In this document: positions 4,799-43,185 of the stretch, piece after piece
Layout: every line of letters starts with the position of its first letter
Numbering within the stretch: position 1 is the first letter of the stretch
Source of the DNA: an uncultured Candidatus Saccharibacteria bacterium
Lineage (GTDB): Bacteria > Patescibacteriota > Minisyncoccia > 2-02-FULL-40-12 > GWA2-44-9
Direction: 5' to 3'
DNA: 64,000 nucleotides
NCBI GenBank assembly: GCA_964444955.1
Contig: CAYUJB010000001.1
Location: 77,368 to 141,367, forward strand
Program-made: the position numbers and the translations under genes
Notes under the pieces: generated by a model
What the model saw: only the letters and a program-made list of their open reading frames with translations
Databases searched by the model: none
What the model was told of the DNA's origin: nothing

Positions 4799-4990
4799 AA
4801 TTGCGGGAAGGGTGGGATTTGCCCGCACCTCTCGCCTCGCCGTCGCGATGCTCGGGCCTGCCTACCGGCAGGCAGGTTGGGCACCGCCTCCGGGCGACAT
4901 CTACTGATATCGCATCCGTCCGGCGTTCGAATCTCACTTTCTGTCTGCGTTTCTCTATAAACTACCAAACGGCAGTTTATAGAGAAATTG
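4799..4990 (-). other. tRNA-3'-flanking module A: hairpin, conserved-core element, and 21-nt direct repeat of the tRNA 3' end
   Basis: aattgcgggaagggtgggatt occurs at 4799-4819 and again at 4987-5007 (the tRNA 3' end). A perfect 13-bp hairpin lies at 4951-4986. The core blocks cggacggatgcgat, gtcgcccggagg and gcgacggcgag are shared with modules B and C. Confidence 0.7.
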
Positions 4991-5077
4991 CGGGAAGGGT
5001 GGGATTCGAACCCACGAGACCCGTAAAGGTCCGGCGGTTTAGTAAACCGCTGCTTTCAGCCGCTCAGCCACCTTCCC
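4991..5077 (-). tRNA. type II tRNA, Ser-like; anticodon reads as ACU (unusual, needs verification)
   Basis: Acceptor gggaagg/ccttccc, discriminator G, 3-bp D stem, long variable arm, T-arm gtggg-ttcgaat-cccac, anticodon stem gcggt/accgc with loop ttACTaa. Confidence 0.7.
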
Positions 5078-10276: not shown

Positions 10277-10366
10277 TGGAGACGTGTCAGAGTGGTCTAT
10301 TGTACCTCTTTGCTAAAGAGGCAGGGGGTAATTCCCCTCGGAGGTTCGAATCCTCCCGTCTCCGCC
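10277..10366 (+). tRNA. tRNA-Ser(GCU), type II, CCA encoded
   Basis: Acceptor ggagacg/cgtctcc, anticodon loop ttGCTaa, long variable arm, T-arm ggagg-ttcgaat-cctcc, 3' gcca. Confidence 0.85.
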
Positions 10367-10565
10367 ATAATACCCCGAACTAGCATTTGCTAGTTCGGGG
10401 TATTACTATGGTGTGAAAACGGAGGATTCGAAGCCCGGAGCGATGTGACGACAGCAGGAGTCACCGCGAGGGCGGGAGCCCAGAACCGAGATGCCGCGAC
10501 TGGCGGCGTCGAGAGTGGCGGGTGAATCCCTGCCTGTCGGCAGACAGGCTCCCGTCTCCGCCATA
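10367..10565 (+). other. tRNA-3'-flanking module C: hairpin, conserved-core element, and 17-nt direct repeat of the tRNA 3' end
   Basis: ctcccgtctccgccata occurs at 10350-10366 (the tRNA 3' end) and again at 10549-10565. A perfect 16-bp hairpin lies at 10370-10401. The element begins cggaggattcgaagcccggagcgatg, an inverted T-arm followed by a conserved block. Confidence 0.7.
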
Positions 10566-28217: not shown

Positions 28218-31200
28218 ATGTTTGATTTCAAGCAGCGCGAAGAGGAGATACTGAAATTCTGGGAAAACAACAGTATCTTCGAAAAAAGCATGGAGCAGCG
28301 CAAAGGCGGCAAACCGTTCGTGTTTTTTGAGGGGCCACCTACTGCCAATGGCAGCCCGGGCATCCATCATTTCGTATCGCGCGCATTCAAAGACTTGTTT
28401 TGTCGTTTTCAATCGATGCGTGGGCGCTACGTGTTGCGCAAAGGGGGATGGGATACCCACGGGTTGCCCGTGGAGCTCGCGGTAGAAAAGGAGCTCGGTT
28501 TTAAGAGTAAGAAAGATATCGAAGTGTATGGTATTGCTGCATACAACCGTAAGTGTCGTGAGTCGGTGTGGAAATATCAAAGTGAATGGGAGCGATTCAC
28601 CAAGCGCATGGGCTATTGGGTAGATCTCAAGCATCCCTACATCACCTATGAGAATCCCTATATCGAGTCGCTCTGGAATATTATCGCGACCATTTGGGAC
28701 AAAAACCTTCTCTACCAAGCGCATCGGGTGGTGCCATTCTGCACACGCTGCGGCACGCCGCTCTCCAGCCACGAGGTGGCGCAGGGGTACAAGACCGTCA
28801 CTGATACGTCGGTGTTTCTGAAGTTTCGTGTCGCGCGCTCGAAGCTCAAACTTCCTAAGAATACTTCTATTCTCGCCTGGACGACCACACCGTGGACGTT
28901 GCCGGGCAATGTTGCGCTGGCGGTCGGGCGAGATATTCGGTACGTACTTGCGCATCACGCTGGAGCCGATGAGTATTTTATTCTTGCGGCTGATCTCGCT
29001 AATACCGTGCTGGGCGCGCCACTGGCCATTGATCGAGAATTTTCTGGTGCTGAGCTCATTGGGACAAGCTACGAGCCGCTCTTCGCAGTGCGTAGCCTCA
29101 AGAAGCCCACATCGTACAAGGTCTACGCCGCGGATTTTGTGTCTACATCCGACGGCACGGGCGTAGTGCACACCGCGGTGATGTATGGCGAGGATGATTA
29201 CCAATTAGGCACCACACTCAAGCTGGTGAAACAGCACACGGTGGATGAGCAGGGCAAGTTCTTTGGTGTGTCAGAGGCACTCGATGGCAAATATGTAAAA
29301 TCATCGACCACGGAGGCGATGATCATTGATTCGCTCACAGAACGCGGATTACTCTTGCGTGCGTTGCCCTATGAGCACGAATATCCGTTCTGCTGGCGGT
29401 GCGATACGCCGCTGTTGTACTACGCAAAGGATAGTTGGTTCGTGCGCGTGAGTTCGCTTAACAAGCAGATGCTCGCCAACAACGACCAGGTCAACTGGGT
29501 GCCATCTCACCTCAAGGACGGCCGGTTTGGGCAGTGGATTCGCGAAGGCAAGGATTGGGCATTTTCTCGTGAGCGATACTGGGGTACACCACTGCCGATT
29601 TGGCGATCCAAAGATGGCAAGAAAACGATCGTCGCTCGTTCTCTGGAAGATTTGGATACCTATCGTGCGCGCAAGGCAAATACCTTTATTCTCGTTCGCC
29701 ACGGCGAGAGTACGCGCAACAGTATCTCACGCGCAGACTCTACCATCTCGAGTTCGCTCGATCACGATACCTATCATCTCACCGAGCGGGGAGTGTCGGA
29801 GGCGCAGTCGTTGGCGGCAACGTTGAAAGCAAAAAAGATTGATGCGATCTATGCGTCACCATTTGTGCGCACGCAAGAAACGTCAAAAATTCTTTCGGTC
29901 GTGCTCAAGAAAAAAATTATCACGGATGAGCGACTTGGGGAGTTGCAGTACGGTACTGCATACGAGGGCAAAAAAGTGTCGCAAGCTGGTGACGATGTGG
30001 TGCGCAAATCATTCCATGATGCACCAGCCGGAGGAGAATCGTGGCAGCAATGTCGCGCGCGTATGACCGCATTCTTTACGGAGGTGAATGCGAAGTACGA
30101 GGGCAAGACTATTGTGGTAGTCTCCCACGGAGATCCGTTATGGTTGGCTCGCACCATGCTTCGAGGGCTCACCGAAGAGGAGGCCATCCCTCAGTACGGC
30201 GATCTCTATCCTACGTTTGCGACCTCGTACGTTGAAACGATGCACAACTGGCCGTACGACGAACGGGGTAATCTCGACATGCATCGTCCTTACGTCGATG
30301 AGATTGTCCTCAAAACAAAAGGTTCGAGCACGCTCCTGCGACGTATTCCGGAACTTTGTGACGTTTGGTTTGACTCGGGATCCATGCCGTATGCGCAGTG
30401 GCACTGGCCGTTCGAAAACAAGGCGCTCGCTGAACAGAATTTCCCAGCAGATTTTATCGCAGAAGGCGTTGATCAAACGCGCGGCTGGTTTTATCTGCTC
30501 TTAGCAGTGAGTACACTCCTCGGCAAGGGCGCGCCGTATCGCACCGTGCTATCCAATGGTCACGTGCTCGATGAAAAGGGGATCAAGATGTCCAAGTCAA
30601 AGGGGAATATCGTGAAGCCCGATGAGGTTATCGATGCGGTCGGGGTTGATGTGGCGCGCTGGTATTTTTACACCATCAATTCACCGGGTGATTCCAAAAA
30701 CTTCTCGATGAAAGAAGTGCGTGAGCGTCTGACGGGATTTATGATGACACTCCAAAACTGCGTGCGCTTCTATGAGCTCTACAGCACCGAACACGTCACC
30801 AGCGACGCGCCCACGACGACGAATCTCTTGGACGCCTGGATCCTCTCGCGTCTTACCGAGGTGACAAAGATGACGACCGAGCGCTTGGAGACATATGAAC
30901 TCACCGAGGCATCACGCGCATTGGAGAAATTTATTGTTGATGATTTTAGCCAATGGTGGCTGCGCCGAAGTCGCAAACGCGACGATGCGTTACCGCTTCT
31001 ACGTCGTATCCTCAAATCACTGGCTCTATTGTTGGCGCCATTTACTCCGTATGTCGCCGAAGATCTCTGGCTCAAGCTCAAGACAGATGGCGATGTAGAG
31101 TCCGTACATCTTGCCGATTGGCCACACTACGATGCCGCCGCCATCGACGCCGCGCTCTACGAACAGATGGATCGTGTGCGCTCTGGTATTAGTGCTGGAT

Positions 31201-31646
31201 TGGCAATTCGCAAAAACGAAGCAATCAAAGTGCGCCAACCACTTGCGTCTGTGACAATTCCTGGCACACCTCTCCAGCCAGATTTAGAGCAACTTATTCT
31301 TGATGAACTCAATGTGAAAGCGGTGCAGTATGTCGTTGGCGCTGATGTGGCACTCGATCTCCGTATTGGCACCGAACTGCGCGCCGAAGGATTCGCACGC
31401 GAAGTGATGCGTGCCATCCAAGACATGCGTAAAGAGGCCGGCTGTCAGGTCTCCGATCGTGTCCACTGCGAGTGGGCAAGTACCGACGCGGATGTGGCCG
31501 CTGCCCTCCGCGTGCACGATGCCTTAATCCGCAAAGACACCGGACTCTCTGCGTTTATCGAAAAGCCCGATAACAGCACGCTTACGGTTGAGAAGAATTT
31601 CGATCTCGCGCCCGGCAAACCGATCTGGATTGGTATTCGCGTCTAA
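28218..31646 (+). CDS. ileS: isoleucyl-tRNA synthetase with inserted histidine-phosphatase (PGAM-like) domain
   Basis: 1142 aa with HIGH-type PPTANGSPGIHH, WAFSRERYWGTPLPIW, HRPYVDE and KMSKS motifs. An extra in-frame segment of about 200 aa with RHGES...VVSHGD lies between PIW and HRPYVDE. Confidence 0.95.
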   Translation: MFDFKQREEEILKFWENNSIFEKSMEQRKGGKPFVFFEGPPTANGSPGIHHFVSRAFKDLFCRFQSMRGRYVLRKGGWDTHGLPVELAVEKELGFKSKKDIEVYGIAAYNRKCRESVWKYQSEWERFTKRMGYWVDLKHPYITYENPYIESLWNIIATIWDKNLLYQAHRVVPFCTRCGTPLSSHEVAQGYKTVTDTSVFLKFRVARSKLKLPKNTSILAWTTTPWTLPGNVALAVGRDIRYVLAHHAGADEYFILAADLANTVLGAPLAIDREFSGAELIGTSYEPLFAVRSLKKPTSYKVYAADFVSTSDGTGVVHTAVMYGEDDYQLGTTLKLVKQHTVDEQGKFFGVSEALDGKYVKSSTTEAMIIDSLTERGLLLRALPYEHEYPFCWRCDTPLLYYAKDSWFVRVSSLNKQMLANNDQVNWVPSHLKDGRFGQWIREGKDWAFSRERYWGTPLPIWRSKDGKKTIVARSLEDLDTYRARKANTFILVRHGESTRNSISRADSTISSSLDHDTYHLTERGVSEAQSLAATLKAKKIDAIYASPFVRTQETSKILSVVLKKKIITDERLGELQYGTAYEGKKVSQAGDDVVRKSFHDAPAGGESWQQCRARMTAFFTEVNAKYEGKTIVVVSHGDPLWLARTMLRGLTEEEAIPQYGDLYPTFATSYVETMHNWPYDERGNLDMHRPYVDEIVLKTKGSSTLLRRIPELCDVWFDSGSMPYAQWHWPFENKALAEQNFPADFIAEGVDQTRGWFYLLLAVSTLLGKGAPYRTVLSNGHVLDEKGIKMSKSKGNIVKPDEVIDAVGVDVARWYFYTINSPGDSKNFSMKEVRERLTGFMMTLQNCVRFYELYSTEHVTSDAPTTTNLLDAWILSRLTEVTKMTTERLETYELTEASRALEKFIVDDFSQWWLRRSRKRDDALPLLRRILKSLALLLAPFTPYVAEDLWLKLKTDGDVESVHLADWPHYDAAAIDAALYEQMDRVRSGISAGLAIRKNEAIKVRQPLASVTIPGTPLQPDLEQLILDELNVKAVQYVVGADVALDLRIGTELRAEGFAREVMRAIQDMRKEAGCQVSDRVHCEWASTDADVAAALRVHDALIRKDTGLSAFIEKPDNSTLTVEKNFDLAPGKPIWIGIRV

Positions 31647-38763: not shown

Positions 38764-40083
38764 ATGATGGGCGCAATGAATGCAGAACAAAATCGGATGG
38801 AAAAGATCGTGTCGCTCACGAAGCGTCGTGGTTTTGTGTTCCCTGGATCCGAAATCTATGGAGGCCTAGCGAGCACCTTCGACTATGGTCCGATGGGCGT
38901 GGAACTCAAAAACAATCTCAAGCGCCTCTGGTGGAAGTATTTTGTCCAAGACCGAGAAGACATGACGGGCTTGGATGGGGGAATCATCCTGAGCCCCAAA
39001 ATCTGGGAGGCGAGTGGGCATGTCCAGAATTTTAAGGATCCACTCGTCGAGTGCAAAAAATGTCATCACCGTTTTCGTCCTGACAAGCTCGCCGATGCCA
39101 CGAAGTGTCCTGATTGTGGCGGTGAGTTTACGGATGTGAAGATGTTTAGCGGTATGTTTGAGACATCGATCGGGCCCGTCAAAGAAGAAGGGCTGCGGGT
39201 ATACCTCCGTCCTGAAACAGCTCAGGCCATCTTCGCCAACTTCAAGAATGTCTTGGACTCGACCAATAAGAAGCTTCCGTTCGGTATCGGGCAGATCGGA
39301 AAAGCATTTCGCAACGAGATTACAACTGGCAATTTTATTTTCCGAACGCTTGAGTTTGAGCAAGGCGAAATTGAATACTTTATCTCTCCCGAAGCCGACT
39401 GGAGTGCGCTCTTCGAACAGTGGGTGGAGTACATCTATGGCTTTGCAGATATCATAGGATTGCCACGCTCGCAGTTTGTGAACCACGAGATCCCCGACGA
39501 TGAACGGGCATTCTACTCCAAGCGCACCATAGATATCGAGTACCAGTTTCCTTTCGGTCAGGACGAGCTCTGGGCGATTGCCTACCGCACCGACTACGAC
39601 TTGGCGCGGCATCAGGAAGCGTCAGGCAAGAAGCTTGAATATTTCGACGAGGGTGAAAAGAAGCATTATATCCCGCACGTTATCGAGCCGACGTTTGGCA
39701 TTGATCGTACATTTTTGGCTGTCTTGTCGGAGGCGTACGATGATAGCGATCCCGAGCGCGTCGTGTTGCACCTCAAGCCCGAGCTTGCGCCGTACAAGGC
39801 AGCGGTGTTCCCACTTCTCAAAAATAAGCCTGAGCTGGTTGCCAAGGCGCGCGAGGTATTCGGCGCACTCAAGCGCGATCTCACCGTGGCATGGGATGAG
39901 CGCGGCAATATTGGTAAGCGCTATCTTGCTCAAGATGAGATTGGTACCCCTGCGTGCATTACAGTTGATTTTCAAACACTCGAAGACAACACCGTGACGG
40001 TTCGTGACCGCGACACCAAAGAGCAGACGCGTGTTGCGATTGCATCGCTCCGCGAATATCTCCACGAGCGACTCGCTCTATGA
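38764..40083 (+). CDS. glyQS: glycyl-tRNA synthetase (alpha2 dimeric type)
   Basis: 439 aa with class II motifs and an eukaryote/archaeal-like GlyRS N-terminus SEIYGGLASTFDYGP. Confidence 0.95.
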   Translation: MMGAMNAEQNRMEKIVSLTKRRGFVFPGSEIYGGLASTFDYGPMGVELKNNLKRLWWKYFVQDREDMTGLDGGIILSPKIWEASGHVQNFKDPLVECKKCHHRFRPDKLADATKCPDCGGEFTDVKMFSGMFETSIGPVKEEGLRVYLRPETAQAIFANFKNVLDSTNKKLPFGIGQIGKAFRNEITTGNFIFRTLEFEQGEIEYFISPEADWSALFEQWVEYIYGFADIIGLPRSQFVNHEIPDDERAFYSKRTIDIEYQFPFGQDELWAIAYRTDYDLARHQEASGKKLEYFDEGEKKHYIPHVIEPTFGIDRTFLAVLSEAYDDSDPERVVLHLKPELAPYKAAVFPLLKNKPELVAKAREVFGALKRDLTVAWDERGNIGKRYLAQDEIGTPACITVDFQTLEDNTVTVRDRDTKEQTRVAIASLREYLHERLAL

Positions 40084-42048: not shown

Positions 42049-43185
42049 ATGAAAATCACCATCGAAACGCCGGAAGAGTTATCAGTCCGAAAGAAGTTAA
42101 GCGAGAAGAAAGACGCGGTGAGCGAACGACTGAAGCGCTTTTTGGCTTTACCCGATTTATCGAGGACTCCCGGGAGCCCTATTTACGAGCTCGCGGAGCG
42201 CATCATTTCTATTCCCAGTTTTAAAGACTTTGATGTTGTGACCGTTCCGGAAATCGTGCCTGCCGATAAGAGTTTTGATTTGTTCGATTTTGCTCCGAAC
42301 CATCCTGCGCGCAGTCCATCTGATACCTACTACGTCGAAGACAATGCAATCTTGCGAACGCACACGACGATTTCTTGGTACTACTACCTGACATCGGAGC
42401 GGGCGAAAGAAAAGATTTCGAAGCGCGAGTCGCTCGGTGTCTTTACGTATGGCAAGGTGTATCGTAAAGATGAGATTGATCGGAATCACATGAACGTCTT
42501 TCATCAGATGGACGGCTATTTTCTGATACCGAAAGAGGAGGGTAGTATTGGCATCGAGGACCTGAAGAATGTTCTTATCAAGATCGCGCAGGCAGTATTT
42601 GGAGTGGACGTGAAATACCGATTTAATCCGGATAACTTCCCATACACTGACCCCAGTCTTGAAATGGAAGTAGAAAAAGGTGAGCGATGGGTAGAGGTTC
42701 TGGGCAGTGGAGTTGTGAAGGGGAGCGTATTGGAGAAGCTCGGCATCGACTCCGCGCTCTACACGGGGTGGGCGTTTGGGTTCGGTCTTGAACGTCTGGC
42801 AATCTTAAGCATGGACTTACCGGATATCCGATTGCTTTGGTCTCACGATCCGAGGGTACTCAAGCAGCTAAAGCTTGGCGCTATCTATAAGGAGGTCAGT
42901 AAGTTTCCACAAATCACGCGAGATATTTCGTTCATCGTGCCGAAAAATTTTGCGCCGAATAACTACTTCGATCTTATTCGCGATCTTGGCGGTCAATTGG
43001 TAGAGGAAGTGACACTGCTAGACCATTACGACAACGACGAGAAGTTCGGAGCTGGCAACACCAGCTACACTTACCGCATTGTGTATCGCTCTAATGAGCG
43101 TACGCTCGCCACTGCAGAGATTGACCCAATTCAGGCAAAGATTAGCCAGGAAACAACCGCACAGTTTAACGCTCAAATCAGGTAG
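42049..43185 (+). CDS. pheS: phenylalanyl-tRNA synthetase, single-chain PheS-like catalytic domain fused to C-terminal FDX-ACB anticodon-binding domain
   Basis: Class II motif 3 GWAFGFGLERLAIL ends at about aa 280. The next 95 aa (SKFPQITRDISFIVP...YTYRIVYRSNERTL) match the FDX-ACB domain normally found at the C-terminus of PheT. Confidence 0.85.
   Translation: MKITIETPEELSVRKKLSEKKDAVSERLKRFLALPDLSRTPGSPIYELAERIISIPSFKDFDVVTVPEIVPADKSFDLFDFAPNHPARSPSDTYYVEDNAILRTHTTISWYYYLTSERAKEKISKRESLGVFTYGKVYRKDEIDRNHMNVFHQMDGYFLIPKEEGSIGIEDLKNVLIKIAQAVFGVDVKYRFNPDNFPYTDPSLEMEVEKGERWVEVLGSGVVKGSVLEKLGIDSALYTGWAFGFGLERLAILSMDLPDIRLLWSHDPRVLKQLKLGAIYKEVSKFPQITRDISFIVPKNFAPNNYFDLIRDLGGQLVEEVTLLDHYDNDEKFGAGNTSYTYRIVYRSNERTLATAEIDPIQAKISQETTAQFNAQIR

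What the first reader, a model, noticed from the sequence alone, without database searches (positions are those of the whole stretch)
42049..43185. Single-chain PheS fused to an FDX-ACB domain: mitochondrial-type monomeric PheRS architecture
The 378-aa protein has the bacterial PheS N-terminal helical region and class II catalytic core, with motif 3 (GWAFGFGLERLAIL...DIRLLWSHDPRVLKQL) ending near aa 280. It then continues for about 95 aa as SKFPQITRDISFIVPKNFAPNNYFDLIRDLGGQLVEEVTLLDHYDN...TSYTYRIVYRSNERTLATAEID. That tail matches the ferredoxin-fold anticodon-binding domain normally found at the C-terminus of the beta subunit PheT. This alpha + FDX-ACB arrangement is the one used by monomeric mitochondrial PheRS. 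No pheT is adjacent.
Basis: partly seen in the sequence, partly recalled or inferred. Interest (0 to 1): 0.6.

Follow-up and report, generated by a model that had tools for sequence, protein, structure and literature searches.

The report
Single-chain PheRS in a Parcubacteria genome
This gene encodes a one-piece phenylalanyl-tRNA synthetase built like the mitochondrial enzyme, and it appears to be the everyday enzyme of a large group of tiny, uncultured bacteria that seem to lack the usual second subunit and its proofreading domain.

Summary
Window 42049..43185 (+) encodes a 378-aa protein with a class IIc PheS catalytic core (aa 44-273, PF01409, E 5e-54). A full-length FDX-ACB domain is fused to it (aa 284-378, PF03147, E 5e-23). 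The best sequence and fold matches over the whole chain are to human mitochondrial PheRS (3CMQ/5MGH, TM ~0.8).

It belongs to a very large, strongly conserved Patescibacteria family, with at least 590 species genomes in GTDB. The family is more conserved than the neighbouring GyrB. Gracilibacteria carry the nearest sister forms.

All canonical Phe/ATP-site residues are conserved. So are the four residues that read anticodon base G34 in the human enzyme. The curated bacterial look-alike "SrmL" has lost many of these residues and forms a separate clade.

I found no pheT, second pheS or editing domain in the window, in 16 kb of extensions, or in 1.1 Mb of flanks from 80 relatives. In 11 relatives a free-standing 136-aa PheT-B2 domain gene sits directly upstream.

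I could not test whether pheT is absent from the whole genome. I found no paper describing this enzyme in bacteria.

Verdict: a genuine bacterial single-chain PheRS without an editing domain, and probably the cell's only one. It is a new member of a known kind, of moderate to high interest.

The parts
42049..43185 (+). Complete gene for the 378-aa single-chain PheRS (ATG start to stop codon)
   Evidence: ORF list. An identical protein (P0001) is recorded on NCBI, ENA and Logan contigs. The family alignment is conserved from residue 3 onward, which supports this start codon.
42049..42177 (+). Short N-terminal helical segment (aa 1-43). It is not the PheS coiled-coil domain.
   Evidence: Pfam finds nothing N-terminal of aa 44. 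The AF2 model has helices at 8-19 and 23-33. E. coli PheS residues 1-106 have no counterpart.
42178..42867 (+). Class IIc catalytic core (aa 44-273) with motifs 1-3. Key residues are H85, R88, motif-2 R139, H147, F151, H152, Q153, F197, T200 (= E. coli T251), S203, E205, E216, A242 (= E. coli A294) and motif-3 R249.
   Evidence: PF01409 E 5.4e-54. The residue-by-residue table against E. coli PheS and the mitochondrial forms shows every site conserved. The sites are invariant in 49 family members.
42868..42897 (+). Linker or hinge between the catalytic module and the anticodon-binding domain (aa 274-283)
   Evidence: It lies between the two Pfam envelopes. pLDDT is slightly lower here, at 83-89. 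In the human enzyme the equivalent linkage allows the closed-to-open rotation (3CMQ versus 3TUP; TM 0.79 versus 0.59).
42898..43182 (+). FDX-ACB (PheT-B8-type) anticodon-binding domain (aa 284-378). D325, Y327, S339 and R378 are the predicted contacts with anticodon base G34.
   Evidence: PF03147 profile positions 1-94 of 94, E 4.7e-23. TIGR00472 pheT_bact profile positions 692-798 match aa 271-378. The residues align with human D364, F366, S375 and R414 (PMC7540514). They are invariant or nearly invariant in the family.

Best explanation
The gene encodes the working, housekeeping phenylalanyl-tRNA synthetase of a Parcubacteria-group (Patescibacteria/CPR) bacterium, built as a single chain. 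A class IIc PheS-type catalytic core activates phenylalanine with ATP and transfers it to tRNA-Phe. A C-terminal ferredoxin-fold domain, homologous to the B8 domain of the bacterial beta subunit, reads the GAA anticodon, chiefly G34, through D325, Y327, S339 and R378. By analogy with human mitochondrial PheRS, the anticodon-binding domain probably packs against the catalytic module when no tRNA is bound. It would then swing out on a hinge (aa ~274-283) to hold the tRNA. The protein has none of the beta-subunit domains B1-B7, so it has no B3/B4 editing site and cannot proofread Tyr-tRNA-Phe or meta-Tyr-tRNA-Phe in cis. It is most likely the only PheRS of the cell, because the classical pheS-pheT pair appears to have been replaced in this lineage.

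Shown here: the architecture, the fold, the conserved catalytic and anticodon-contact residues, housekeeping-grade conservation, wide vertical distribution in Patescibacteria, and absence of pheT from all sequence examined.

Inferred: enzymatic activity, the monomeric state, the hinge mechanism, lack of editing, and status as the sole PheRS.
For: - **Architecture:** PF01409 plus a full-length PF03147 in one chain.
- **Sequence matches:** the best PDB sequence hits are human mitochondrial PheRS, at E ~1e-53 over both modules.
- **Fold:** the AF2 model has pLDDT 92.5 and pTM 0.88. Foldseek's best hits are 5MGH, 3CMQ and 8P8X, at TM 0.79-0.81 and rmsd ~3 A over ~390 columns. Bacterial PheS chains reach only TMq ~0.54.
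- **Catalytic residues:** every canonical PheRS active-site residue checked is conserved, all but H105 (E. coli Q169) and D155 (E. coli E210) identical to E. coli PheS. This includes the specificity positions equivalent to E. coli T251 and A294.
- **Anticodon contacts:** the four G34-contact residues defined experimentally in human mtPheRS (PMC7540514) are conserved and invariant or nearly invariant across 49 family members.
- **Distribution:** the family has thousands of members at 67-72% identity across many Parcubacteria lineages. At least 590 relatives occur in GTDB species genomes, and the best 80 are all Patescibacteria apart from one 4.5-kb contig labelled Candidatus Binatia. The nearest sister forms are in Gracilibacteria. 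The Patescibacteria clade has 95% bootstrap support.
- **Constraint:** the gene is more conserved than the adjacent gyrB in 35 of 39 genomes, at 63% versus 58% mean identity.
- **Synteny:** it sits in a conserved housekeeping block of tRNA-Asp, PheRS, gyrB, secE and nusG.
- **No beta subunit found:** there is no pheT, second pheS, or B3_4/B5 sequence in the 64-kb window, in 16 kb of extensions of the same genome, or in 1.11 Mb of flanks from 80 genomes. The probe was validated by a positive control.
Against: - Whole-genome absence of pheT and a canonical pheS could not be tested. If an unlinked pheT existed, only about 1.4 hits would have been expected in the sequence sampled, so zero hits is weak evidence.
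- Some other CPR lineages do encode a PheRS beta subunit (PMC5370408).
- The window protein scores below the curated cut-offs of all three relevant NCBIfam models: pheS_mito 229 against 258, SrmL 237 against 300, and pheS 165 against 237. NCBI labels family members 'hypothetical protein'.
- The monomeric state, activity and lack of editing are inferences from homology. No experiment exists for any bacterial member.
Confidence: 0.72

Rival explanations
1. The protein is an auxiliary or duplicate single-chain PheRS that coexists with a canonical (alpha-beta)2 PheST encoded elsewhere in the genome. It might be a stress-resistant, inhibitor-resistant or specialised copy.
For: Whole genomes could not be scanned. 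Beta subunits exist in some CPR (PMC5370408). Bacteria that carry the related SrmL protein presumably keep PheST as well (inference from the NCBIfam name 'mystery ligase').
Against: These genomes are small and reduced. The gene appears as one match per locus in at least 590 species genomes. It is more conserved than GyrB. No pheT or second pheS was found in ~80 kb of this genome or in 1.1 Mb of relatives' flanks. JGI's only 'beta chain' calls seen in these lineages are 136-aa B2 fragments.
Confidence: 0.13
2. The protein is a member of the 'PheS-related mystery ligase SrmL' family (NF051887). That would make it a PheS-like enzyme with a different, unknown substrate, not a PheRS.
For: SrmL is nominally the top NCBIfam hit at 236.7 bits, and SrmL has the same two-domain layout. 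In the NJ tree SrmL groups loosely with the CPR clade.
Against: The score is well below the curated cut-off of 300, whereas true SrmL (P0249) scores 402. The SrmL clade has replaced key PheRS residues: H85 to N/S, F197 to H, S203 to G, G219 to E, F243 to L/M, Y327 to I/T and S339 to N, and it has no R378. The window's family keeps all of them. SrmL and the CPR family are separate clades, each with 100% bootstrap support, and their grouping has only 42%.
Confidence: 0.04
3. The chain is not self-sufficient. It works as a hetero-oligomer with a minimal beta subunit, a free-standing PheT-B2 (tRNA_bind) protein of ~136 aa, which in this genome would be encoded outside the window.
For: In 11 of 80 related loci, plus L003, a B2-type ORF lies immediately upstream on the same strand. 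It matches pheT_bact profile positions 38-152 better than any other tRNA_bind family. It forms a conserved family of 941 members that JGI labels 'PheRS beta chain'.
Against: No such ORF occurs in the 64-kb window or its extensions, nor in 69 of the 80 loci. Most of the named adjacent cases are Doudnabacteria. Mitochondrial PheRS works without one. B2 is reported as dispensable for aminoacylation in E. coli (Roy and Ibba 2006, as cited in PMC5370408).
Confidence: 0.08
4. The gene is a recent transfer from a eukaryote or giant virus, or the contig is contaminated, so it is not a native bacterial gene.
For: The closest solved structures are eukaryotic. Short single-chain forms are carried by giant-virus or large-phage contigs.
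Against: The gene is embedded in bacterial housekeeping synteny conserved across dozens of genomes. The Patescibacteria clade is monophyletic (95-100% bootstrap) and separate from the viral and mitochondrial forms. It lacks the 50-100-aa insertion of eukaryotic mitochondrial forms. GC content is unremarkable.
Confidence: 0.03

Closest known systems
Mitochondrial monomeric PheRS (human FARS2, yeast MSF1; 'PheRS-M'; PDB 3CMQ, 3TUP; TIGR00469)
   Same: It has the same single-chain layout: a short N-terminal segment, a class IIc core and a C-terminal FDX-ACB. It has the same fold (TM ~0.8 to the closed form), about 30% identity, the same catalytic residues and the same G34-contact residues. Neither has an editing domain.
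   Different: The window protein is bacterial and cytoplasmic, with no targeting peptide. It lacks the 50-100-aa insertion that eukaryotic forms carry within the catalytic module. It forms a separate, well-supported Patescibacteria clade. The window protein falls just below the TIGR00469 cut-off (229 against 258), although its cluster representative passes at 264. In some sister lineages it is paired with a free-standing B2 protein.
Canonical bacterial (alpha-beta)2 PheRS, PheS/PheT (E. coli 3PCO, T. thermophilus 1PYS)
   Same: The catalytic core is homologous to PheS (E 1e-39 to E. coli PheS), with identical active-site residues. The tail is homologous to PheT domain B8.
   Different: It has no PheS N-terminal coiled coil. 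It has none of the beta domains B1, B3/B4 (editing), B5 or B6/7. B8 is fused in cis to the alpha core. No adjacent pheT is present. It scores 164.5 against the TIGR00468 cut-off of 237.45.
PheS-related mystery ligase SrmL (NCBIfam NF051887)
   Same: It is also a bacterial PheS-like core fused to an FDX-ACB-like tail of similar length. It is a loose phylogenetic neighbour.
   Different: The SrmL clade has diverged at many PheRS catalytic and anticodon-contact positions, and the window family has not. The window protein does not reach the SrmL cut-off. The two clades are separate.
Single-chain PheRS encoded on giant-virus or large-phage contigs (IMG/VR, including GVMAG bins)
   Same: They have the same two-domain layout, no insertion and a compact size of 340-360 aa. 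They pass the pheS_mito cut-off.
   Different: They group with the eukaryotic mitochondrial forms rather than with the Patescibacteria clade in the NJ tree, although support is weak. They share only 35-40% identity with the window protein. Their context is viral.

Membership tests
Monomeric mitochondrial-type PheRS (PheRS-M / TIGR00469) | Class IIc PheS-type catalytic core with motifs 1-3 and the Phe/ATP-binding residues | tested here: met
   PF01409 at E 5.4e-54. All checked residues are conserved, nearly all identical to E. coli PheS or the mitochondrial forms.
Monomeric mitochondrial-type PheRS (PheRS-M / TIGR00469) | FDX-ACB (B8-like) anticodon-binding domain fused C-terminally in the same chain | tested here: met
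   PF03147 profile positions 1-94 of 94, E 4.7e-23, at aa 284-378.
Monomeric mitochondrial-type PheRS (PheRS-M / TIGR00469) | Residues that recognise anticodon base G34 (human D364, F366, S375, R414) | tested here: met
   Window D325, Y327, S339 and R378 align with them and are invariant or nearly invariant in the family. The residue roles come from PMC7540514.
Monomeric mitochondrial-type PheRS (PheRS-M / TIGR00469) | Whole-chain structural similarity to solved mitochondrial PheRS | tested here: met
   The best Foldseek hits are 5MGH, 3CMQ and 8P8X, at TM 0.79-0.81 and E ~1e-33, using a model with pLDDT 92.5.
Monomeric mitochondrial-type PheRS (PheRS-M / TIGR00469) | Score above the curated TIGR00469 equivalog cut-off (258.35 bits) | tested here: not met
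   The window protein scores 229.3 bits. The family's 50%-cluster representative P0121 scores 264.3 and passes. The model was built on eukaryotic sequences that carry an insertion absent here.
Monomeric mitochondrial-type PheRS (PheRS-M / TIGR00469) | Active as a monomer without any beta subunit; the sole PheRS of its compartment | tested here: inconclusive
   No pheT was found in ~80 kb of this genome or in 1.1 Mb of flanks from 80 relatives (with the positive control). Whole genomes, oligomeric state and activity cannot be examined with these tools.
Canonical bacterial PheS alpha subunit (TIGR00468) | N-terminal coiled-coil domain, an adjacent pheT partner, and a score above the cut-off of 237.45 | tested here: not met
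   Pfam finds no match N-terminal of aa 44. E. coli PheS residues 1-106 are unmatched. The score is 164.5 bits. No pheT is adjacent in any of the 80 loci.
SrmL, PheS-related mystery ligase (NF051887) | Score above the curated cut-off (300 bits) | tested here: not met
   236.7 bits, against 402.1 for the true member P0249.
SrmL, PheS-related mystery ligase (NF051887) | The SrmL-type diverged active-site and anticodon-domain signature | tested here: not met
   The SrmL clade has N/S85, H197, G203, E219, L/M243, I/T327 and N339, and no terminal Arg. The window has the PheRS residues H, F, S, G, F, Y, S and R at these positions. The clades are separate, each with 100% bootstrap support.

The most novel reading that the evidence does not exclude
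Several classes of Patescibacteria (Paceibacteria-type Parcubacteria, Doudnabacteria, Gracilibacteria) have entirely replaced the universal heterotetrameric PheRS with a single-chain enzyme that has no editing domain. They would then be the first cellular, non-organellar lineages known to do so. This bacterial clade would share a single origin with the mitochondrial and giant-virus enzymes. In that case the long-unexplained mitochondrial PheRS would have been acquired from such a bacterial or viral donor rather than assembled within eukaryotes. The B2-only 'mini-beta' of Doudnabacteria would be a frozen intermediate of beta-subunit decay.
Probability: 0.25. Interest if true: 0.8.

Novelty: new member of a known kind. 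Interest (0 to 1): 0.55.

Why it matters
Standard accounts describe PheRS as an (alpha-beta)2 heterotetramer in all bacteria, archaea and eukaryotic cytosol, with the monomeric form confined to organelles (for example PMC3275996 and PMC11580382). A single-chain PheRS without an editing domain, serving as the housekeeping enzyme of a large bacterial radiation, would matter in four ways.

- It would be a clear exception to that rule and another example of extreme streamlining of translation in CPR bacteria.
- It would raise the question of how these cells cope with tyrosine or meta-tyrosine mischarging without the B3/B4 editing site.
- It would give bacterial and viral relatives of the mitochondrial enzyme. 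Its origin would then be testable by phylogenetics.
- It would correct annotation. NCBI labels these proteins 'hypothetical', and genome-completeness or phylogenomic marker sets that expect pheT (which I believe, from memory, include GTDB's bac120) would score these genomes as incomplete.

Tried and rejected
- **Single-sequence AF2:** the model was unusable (pLDDT 36) and was replaced by a model built from an alignment.
- **Literature:** nine full-text searches found no description of a bacterial or CPR single-chain PheRS, or of SrmL. The search terms covered SrmL, monomeric or mitochondrial-type PheRS, PheRS-M, pheT with CPR, and marker-gene lists. The only relevant remark is that many CPR PheRS-beta proteins lack B2 (PMC5370408).
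- **Organism names:** two exact-sequence cluster look-ups gave almost none. The window's own cluster is unnamed, and P0123 comes from an Oligoflexia MAG.
- **Viral scans:** scans with P0151 alone and with the CPR alignment found nothing. Only the alignment of short forms found viral loci.
- **Whole-genome test for pheT:** this could not be done. Loci are limited to 10-kb flanks, and the large protein searches list only the best 120 hits. The B2 query was saturated by B2-only proteins, so no CPR full-length PheT could be retrieved.
- **SrmL membership:** considered and rejected.
- **Recent eukaryotic or viral transfer, or contamination:** considered and rejected.
- **RNA regulation:** no T-box or leader RNA lies upstream. 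No promoter or terminator signal exceeds chance.
- **Deep branching:** the order among the SrmL, viral plus mitochondrial and CPR clades is unresolved. I used NJ with a single outgroup, and support is 38-42%.

Full report
**1. The observation**

The ORF at 42049..43185 (+) is real.

- Pfam places a class II core domain (F), PF01409, at aa 44-273 (E 5.4e-54).
- Pfam places a complete FDX-ACB domain, PF03147, at aa 284-378. It covers profile positions 1-94 of 94 (E 4.7e-23, 81.9 bits against a cut-off of 31.1).
- The tail also aligns with the last ~107 positions of the bacterial pheT model TIGR00472 and with the C-termini of solved PheT chains.

There is no bacterial PheS N-terminal coiled-coil domain.

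- Pfam finds nothing N-terminal of aa 44.
- E. coli PheS aligns only from its residue 107 onward.
- The N-terminus is a two-helix segment of about 43 aa.

**2. Architecture and fold**

The best PDB sequence matches are the human mitochondrial PheRS chains 8P8X, 5MGU and 3CMQ (E ~1e-53). They cover both modules. Bacterial PheS chains follow at 1e-39 or weaker and cover only the core.

A single-sequence AF2 model was useless (pLDDT 36). A model built on 49 family members is confident (pLDDT 92.5, pTM 0.88).

- Foldseek against the PDB puts closed-state human mtPheRS first: 5MGH, 3CMQ and 8P8X, at TM 0.79-0.81, rmsd ~3 A, ~390 aligned columns and E ~1e-33.
- The open, tRNA-bound form 3TUP scores TM 0.59.
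- Bacterial PheS chains cover only about half the query, at TMq ~0.54.

**3. Is it a real PheRS, or the look-alike SrmL?**

NCBIfam's nominal top hit is 'PheS-related mystery ligase SrmL' (NF051887), at 236.7 bits against a cut-off of 300. Next are pheS_mito (229.3 against 258.35) and pheS (164.5 against 237.45). All three are below their cut-offs. This explains why NCBI calls family members 'hypothetical protein'.

I collected 50%-identity cluster representatives, aligned them and classified the subgroups. Only the P0248/P0249/P0255 clade is true SrmL, at 402 bits. The representative of the window's family, P0121, just passes pheS_mito at 264 bits.

A residue table settles the question.

- The window's family keeps every canonical PheRS catalytic residue checked. 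All but H105 (Q169 in E. coli) and D155 (E210 in E. coli) are identical to E. coli PheS.
- These are H85 (E. coli H149), R88, T104, T106, motif-2 R139 (R195), H147, F151, H152, Q153, F197, P198, T200 (T251), S203, E205, E216, G219, G221, A242 (A294), F243, G244 and motif-3 R249 (R301).
- Human mtPheRS recognises G34 of tRNA-Phe through Asp364, Phe366, Ser375 and Arg414. The Asp364Gly mutant is inactive (PMC7540514).
- In the alignment and in A1 these residues correspond to window D325, Y327, S339 and R378. They are invariant or nearly invariant in the family.
- The SrmL clade has changed many of these positions: H85 to N/S, F197 to H, S203 to G, G219 to E, F243 to L/M, Y327 to I/T and S339 to N. 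It has no terminal Arg.

By its residues the window protein is a PheRS, not an SrmL.

**4. Distribution and constraint**

The protein search returned thousands of relatives. The best 120 all have both domains, are 66-100% identical, and carry names from Yanofsky-, Lipton-, Harrison- and Colwellbacteria, Minisyncoccia, Paceibacterota and Parcubacteria.

The best 80 loci are all Patescibacteria apart from one 4.5-kb contig labelled Candidatus Binatia, which is probably mis-binned. They add Giovannoni-, Doudna-, Nomura-, Vogel- and Zambryskibacteria. The nearest sister group (40-49% identity, with an N-terminal extension) is from Gracilibacteria, labelled 'uncultured bacterium (gcode 4)'.

In an NJ tree of the catalytic core rooted with E. 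coli PheS, bootstrap support is as follows.

| Clade | Bootstrap |
|---|---|
| Window's family | 100% |
| Family plus nearest relatives | 95% |
| SrmL | 100% |
| Deeper nodes | 38-42% (unresolved) |

The gene is more conserved than the adjacent gyrB in 35 of 39 genomes, at a mean of 63.2% against 58.1% identity to the window. The synteny of tRNA-Asp, PheRS, gyrB, secE and nusG recurs; gyrB lies within the fetched flank in 59 of 80 loci. This is the behaviour of a core translation gene.

**5. The beta subunit**

- Pfam scans of the ten largest window ORFs show no PheT.
- A phmmer probe with E. coli PheT and PheS against the six-frame window hits only the target ORF.
- Extending the same genome by about 8 kb on each side adds none.
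- In 1.11 Mb of flanks from 80 genomes the PheT probe hits only two things: the FDX-ACB tails, and, in 11 loci, a small ORF directly upstream that matches PheT residues ~40-149 only.
- The probe works. It detects a genuine pheT at 243 bits next to a canonical pheS on an unrelated contig, L123.

Whole genomes could not be scanned with these tools. An unlinked pheT would have been expected only about 1.4 times in the sequence sampled, so this negative result is weak on its own. Some other CPR do have a beta subunit (PMC5370408). My conclusion that this is the sole PheRS rests mainly on three points: the enzyme looks self-sufficient, it is conserved like a core gene, and the genomes are small.

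**6. Mechanism (inferred)**

By homology with mtPheRS, the catalytic module forms Phe-AMP and transfers Phe to A76. The FDX-ACB domain reads G34. A hinge near aa 274-283 would allow the closed-to-open rearrangement seen between 3CMQ and 3TUP. With no B3/B4 domain there is no cis editing. No T-box or leader RNA lies upstream.

**7. Side findings**

- **Mini-beta.** The upstream mini-ORFs match pheT_bact profile positions 38-152 (94-116 bits). That is better than their matches to YtpR, TapR, the MetRS C-terminal domain or CsaA. They form a family of 941 members made of B2 only, mostly from Doudnabacteria, and JGI labels them 'PheRS beta chain'. This amounts to a minimal beta subunit next to the alpha-B8 fusion. 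None is present in this window.
- **Viral forms.** Compact single-chain forms of 340-360 aa lie on IMG/VR contigs of roughly 5 kb to 1.5 Mb, mostly above 60 kb, including giant-virus MAGs.

**8. Novelty**

The architecture itself is known as PheRS-M. The sequences are in public databases, and UniRef and JGI call some of them PheRS or the PheS alpha chain. However, nine full-text searches found no description of a bacterial housekeeping single-chain PheRS. Reviews and databases list the monomeric form as mitochondrial.

I therefore rate it a new member of a known kind, with moderate to high interest. It is an exception to the usual account of PheRS, and it makes the origin of mitochondrial PheRS testable.

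Noticed in passing
L003 9583-9993; L012 304-732; L015 2884-3363; L022 9373-9888; L023 9592-9996; L029 8335-8778; L042 3522-3956; L055 9545-9970; L058 1-270; L067 5098-5529; L081 2376-2813; L085 8670-9071: A free-standing protein of ~136 aa made only of a PheT-B2 (tRNA_bind) domain is encoded directly upstream of the single-chain PheRS, on the same strand. This occurs in 11 of 80 related genomes, plus L003. Five of the loci carry Doudnabacteria names; most of the others have only generic labels. The ORFs match pheT_bact profile positions 38-152 better than YtpR, TapR, the MetRS C-terminal domain or CsaA. They form a family of 941 members that JGI labels 'PheRS beta chain'. This may be a minimal beta subunit or a relic of beta-subunit decay. 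It is absent from this window.
   Followed up: partly
L088 10001-11065; L089-L124 (IMG/VR contigs): Compact single-chain PheRS genes (340-360 aa, no insertion, passing the pheS_mito cut-off) lie on viral contigs of roughly 5 kb to 1.5 Mb, mostly above 60 kb. These include GVMAG giant-virus bins and a 160-kb phage-like contig carrying ThyX, dCMP deaminase and a dNMP kinase. In the NJ tree they group loosely with the eukaryotic mitochondrial forms.
   Followed up: partly
Proteins P0248, P0249, P0255 (no window coordinates): The curated 'mystery ligase' SrmL clade has the same PheS-core plus FDX-ACB layout. It has replaced many Phe/ATP-site and G34-contact residues (for example F197 to H, G219 to E, S339 to N, and no terminal Arg). 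This suggests a substrate or RNA target other than Phe and tRNA-Phe.
   Followed up: partly
L087 9463-10833 (P0130) and one search hits: The nearest sister forms (400-458 aa, with a 75-114-aa N-terminal extension) come from Gracilibacteria, labelled 'uncultured bacterium (gcode 4)'. The L087 gene does not translate to the protein with table 11, which is consistent with a recoded stop codon in that lineage.
   Followed up: partly
window 28218-31646 (+): A 1142-aa class I synthetase with IleRS-like domains (tRNA-synt_1, Anticodon_1, DUF5915) carries a histidine-phosphatase-superfamily domain (His_Phos_1, aa 491-654) inserted within the synthetase body. This is an unusual domain insertion.
   Followed up: no
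window 4990-5077 (-): A type II tRNA with a long variable arm has the anticodon ACU, which makes it a tRNA-Ser with A34. An ordinary tRNA-Ser(GCU) lies at 10278-10367. The same gene is present in a second assembly (L128). As far as I know (from general knowledge, not checked here), A34 tRNAs other than tRNA-Arg(ACG) are uncommon in bacteria.
   Followed up: partly
window 38764-40083 (+): GlyRS here is the single-gene alpha2 type (tRNA-synt_2b plus HGTP_anticodon), not the bacterial alpha2-beta2 GlyQ/GlyS form. Both synthetases that are classically heterotetrameric in bacteria are therefore represented by one-gene forms in this genome segment.
   Followed up: no
L015 (DASPNG010000107.1, 4.5 kb); P0310; P0123: A few family members, or their B2 neighbours, sit on short contigs of MAGs labelled Candidatus Binatia, Verrucomicrobiae or Oligoflexia. 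These are probably binning contaminants from Patescibacteria, or rare transfers. Many TPA 'binchicken' MAGs that carry the gene are labelled 'uncultured Candidatus Saccharibacteria', which looks like a generic label.
   Followed up: no
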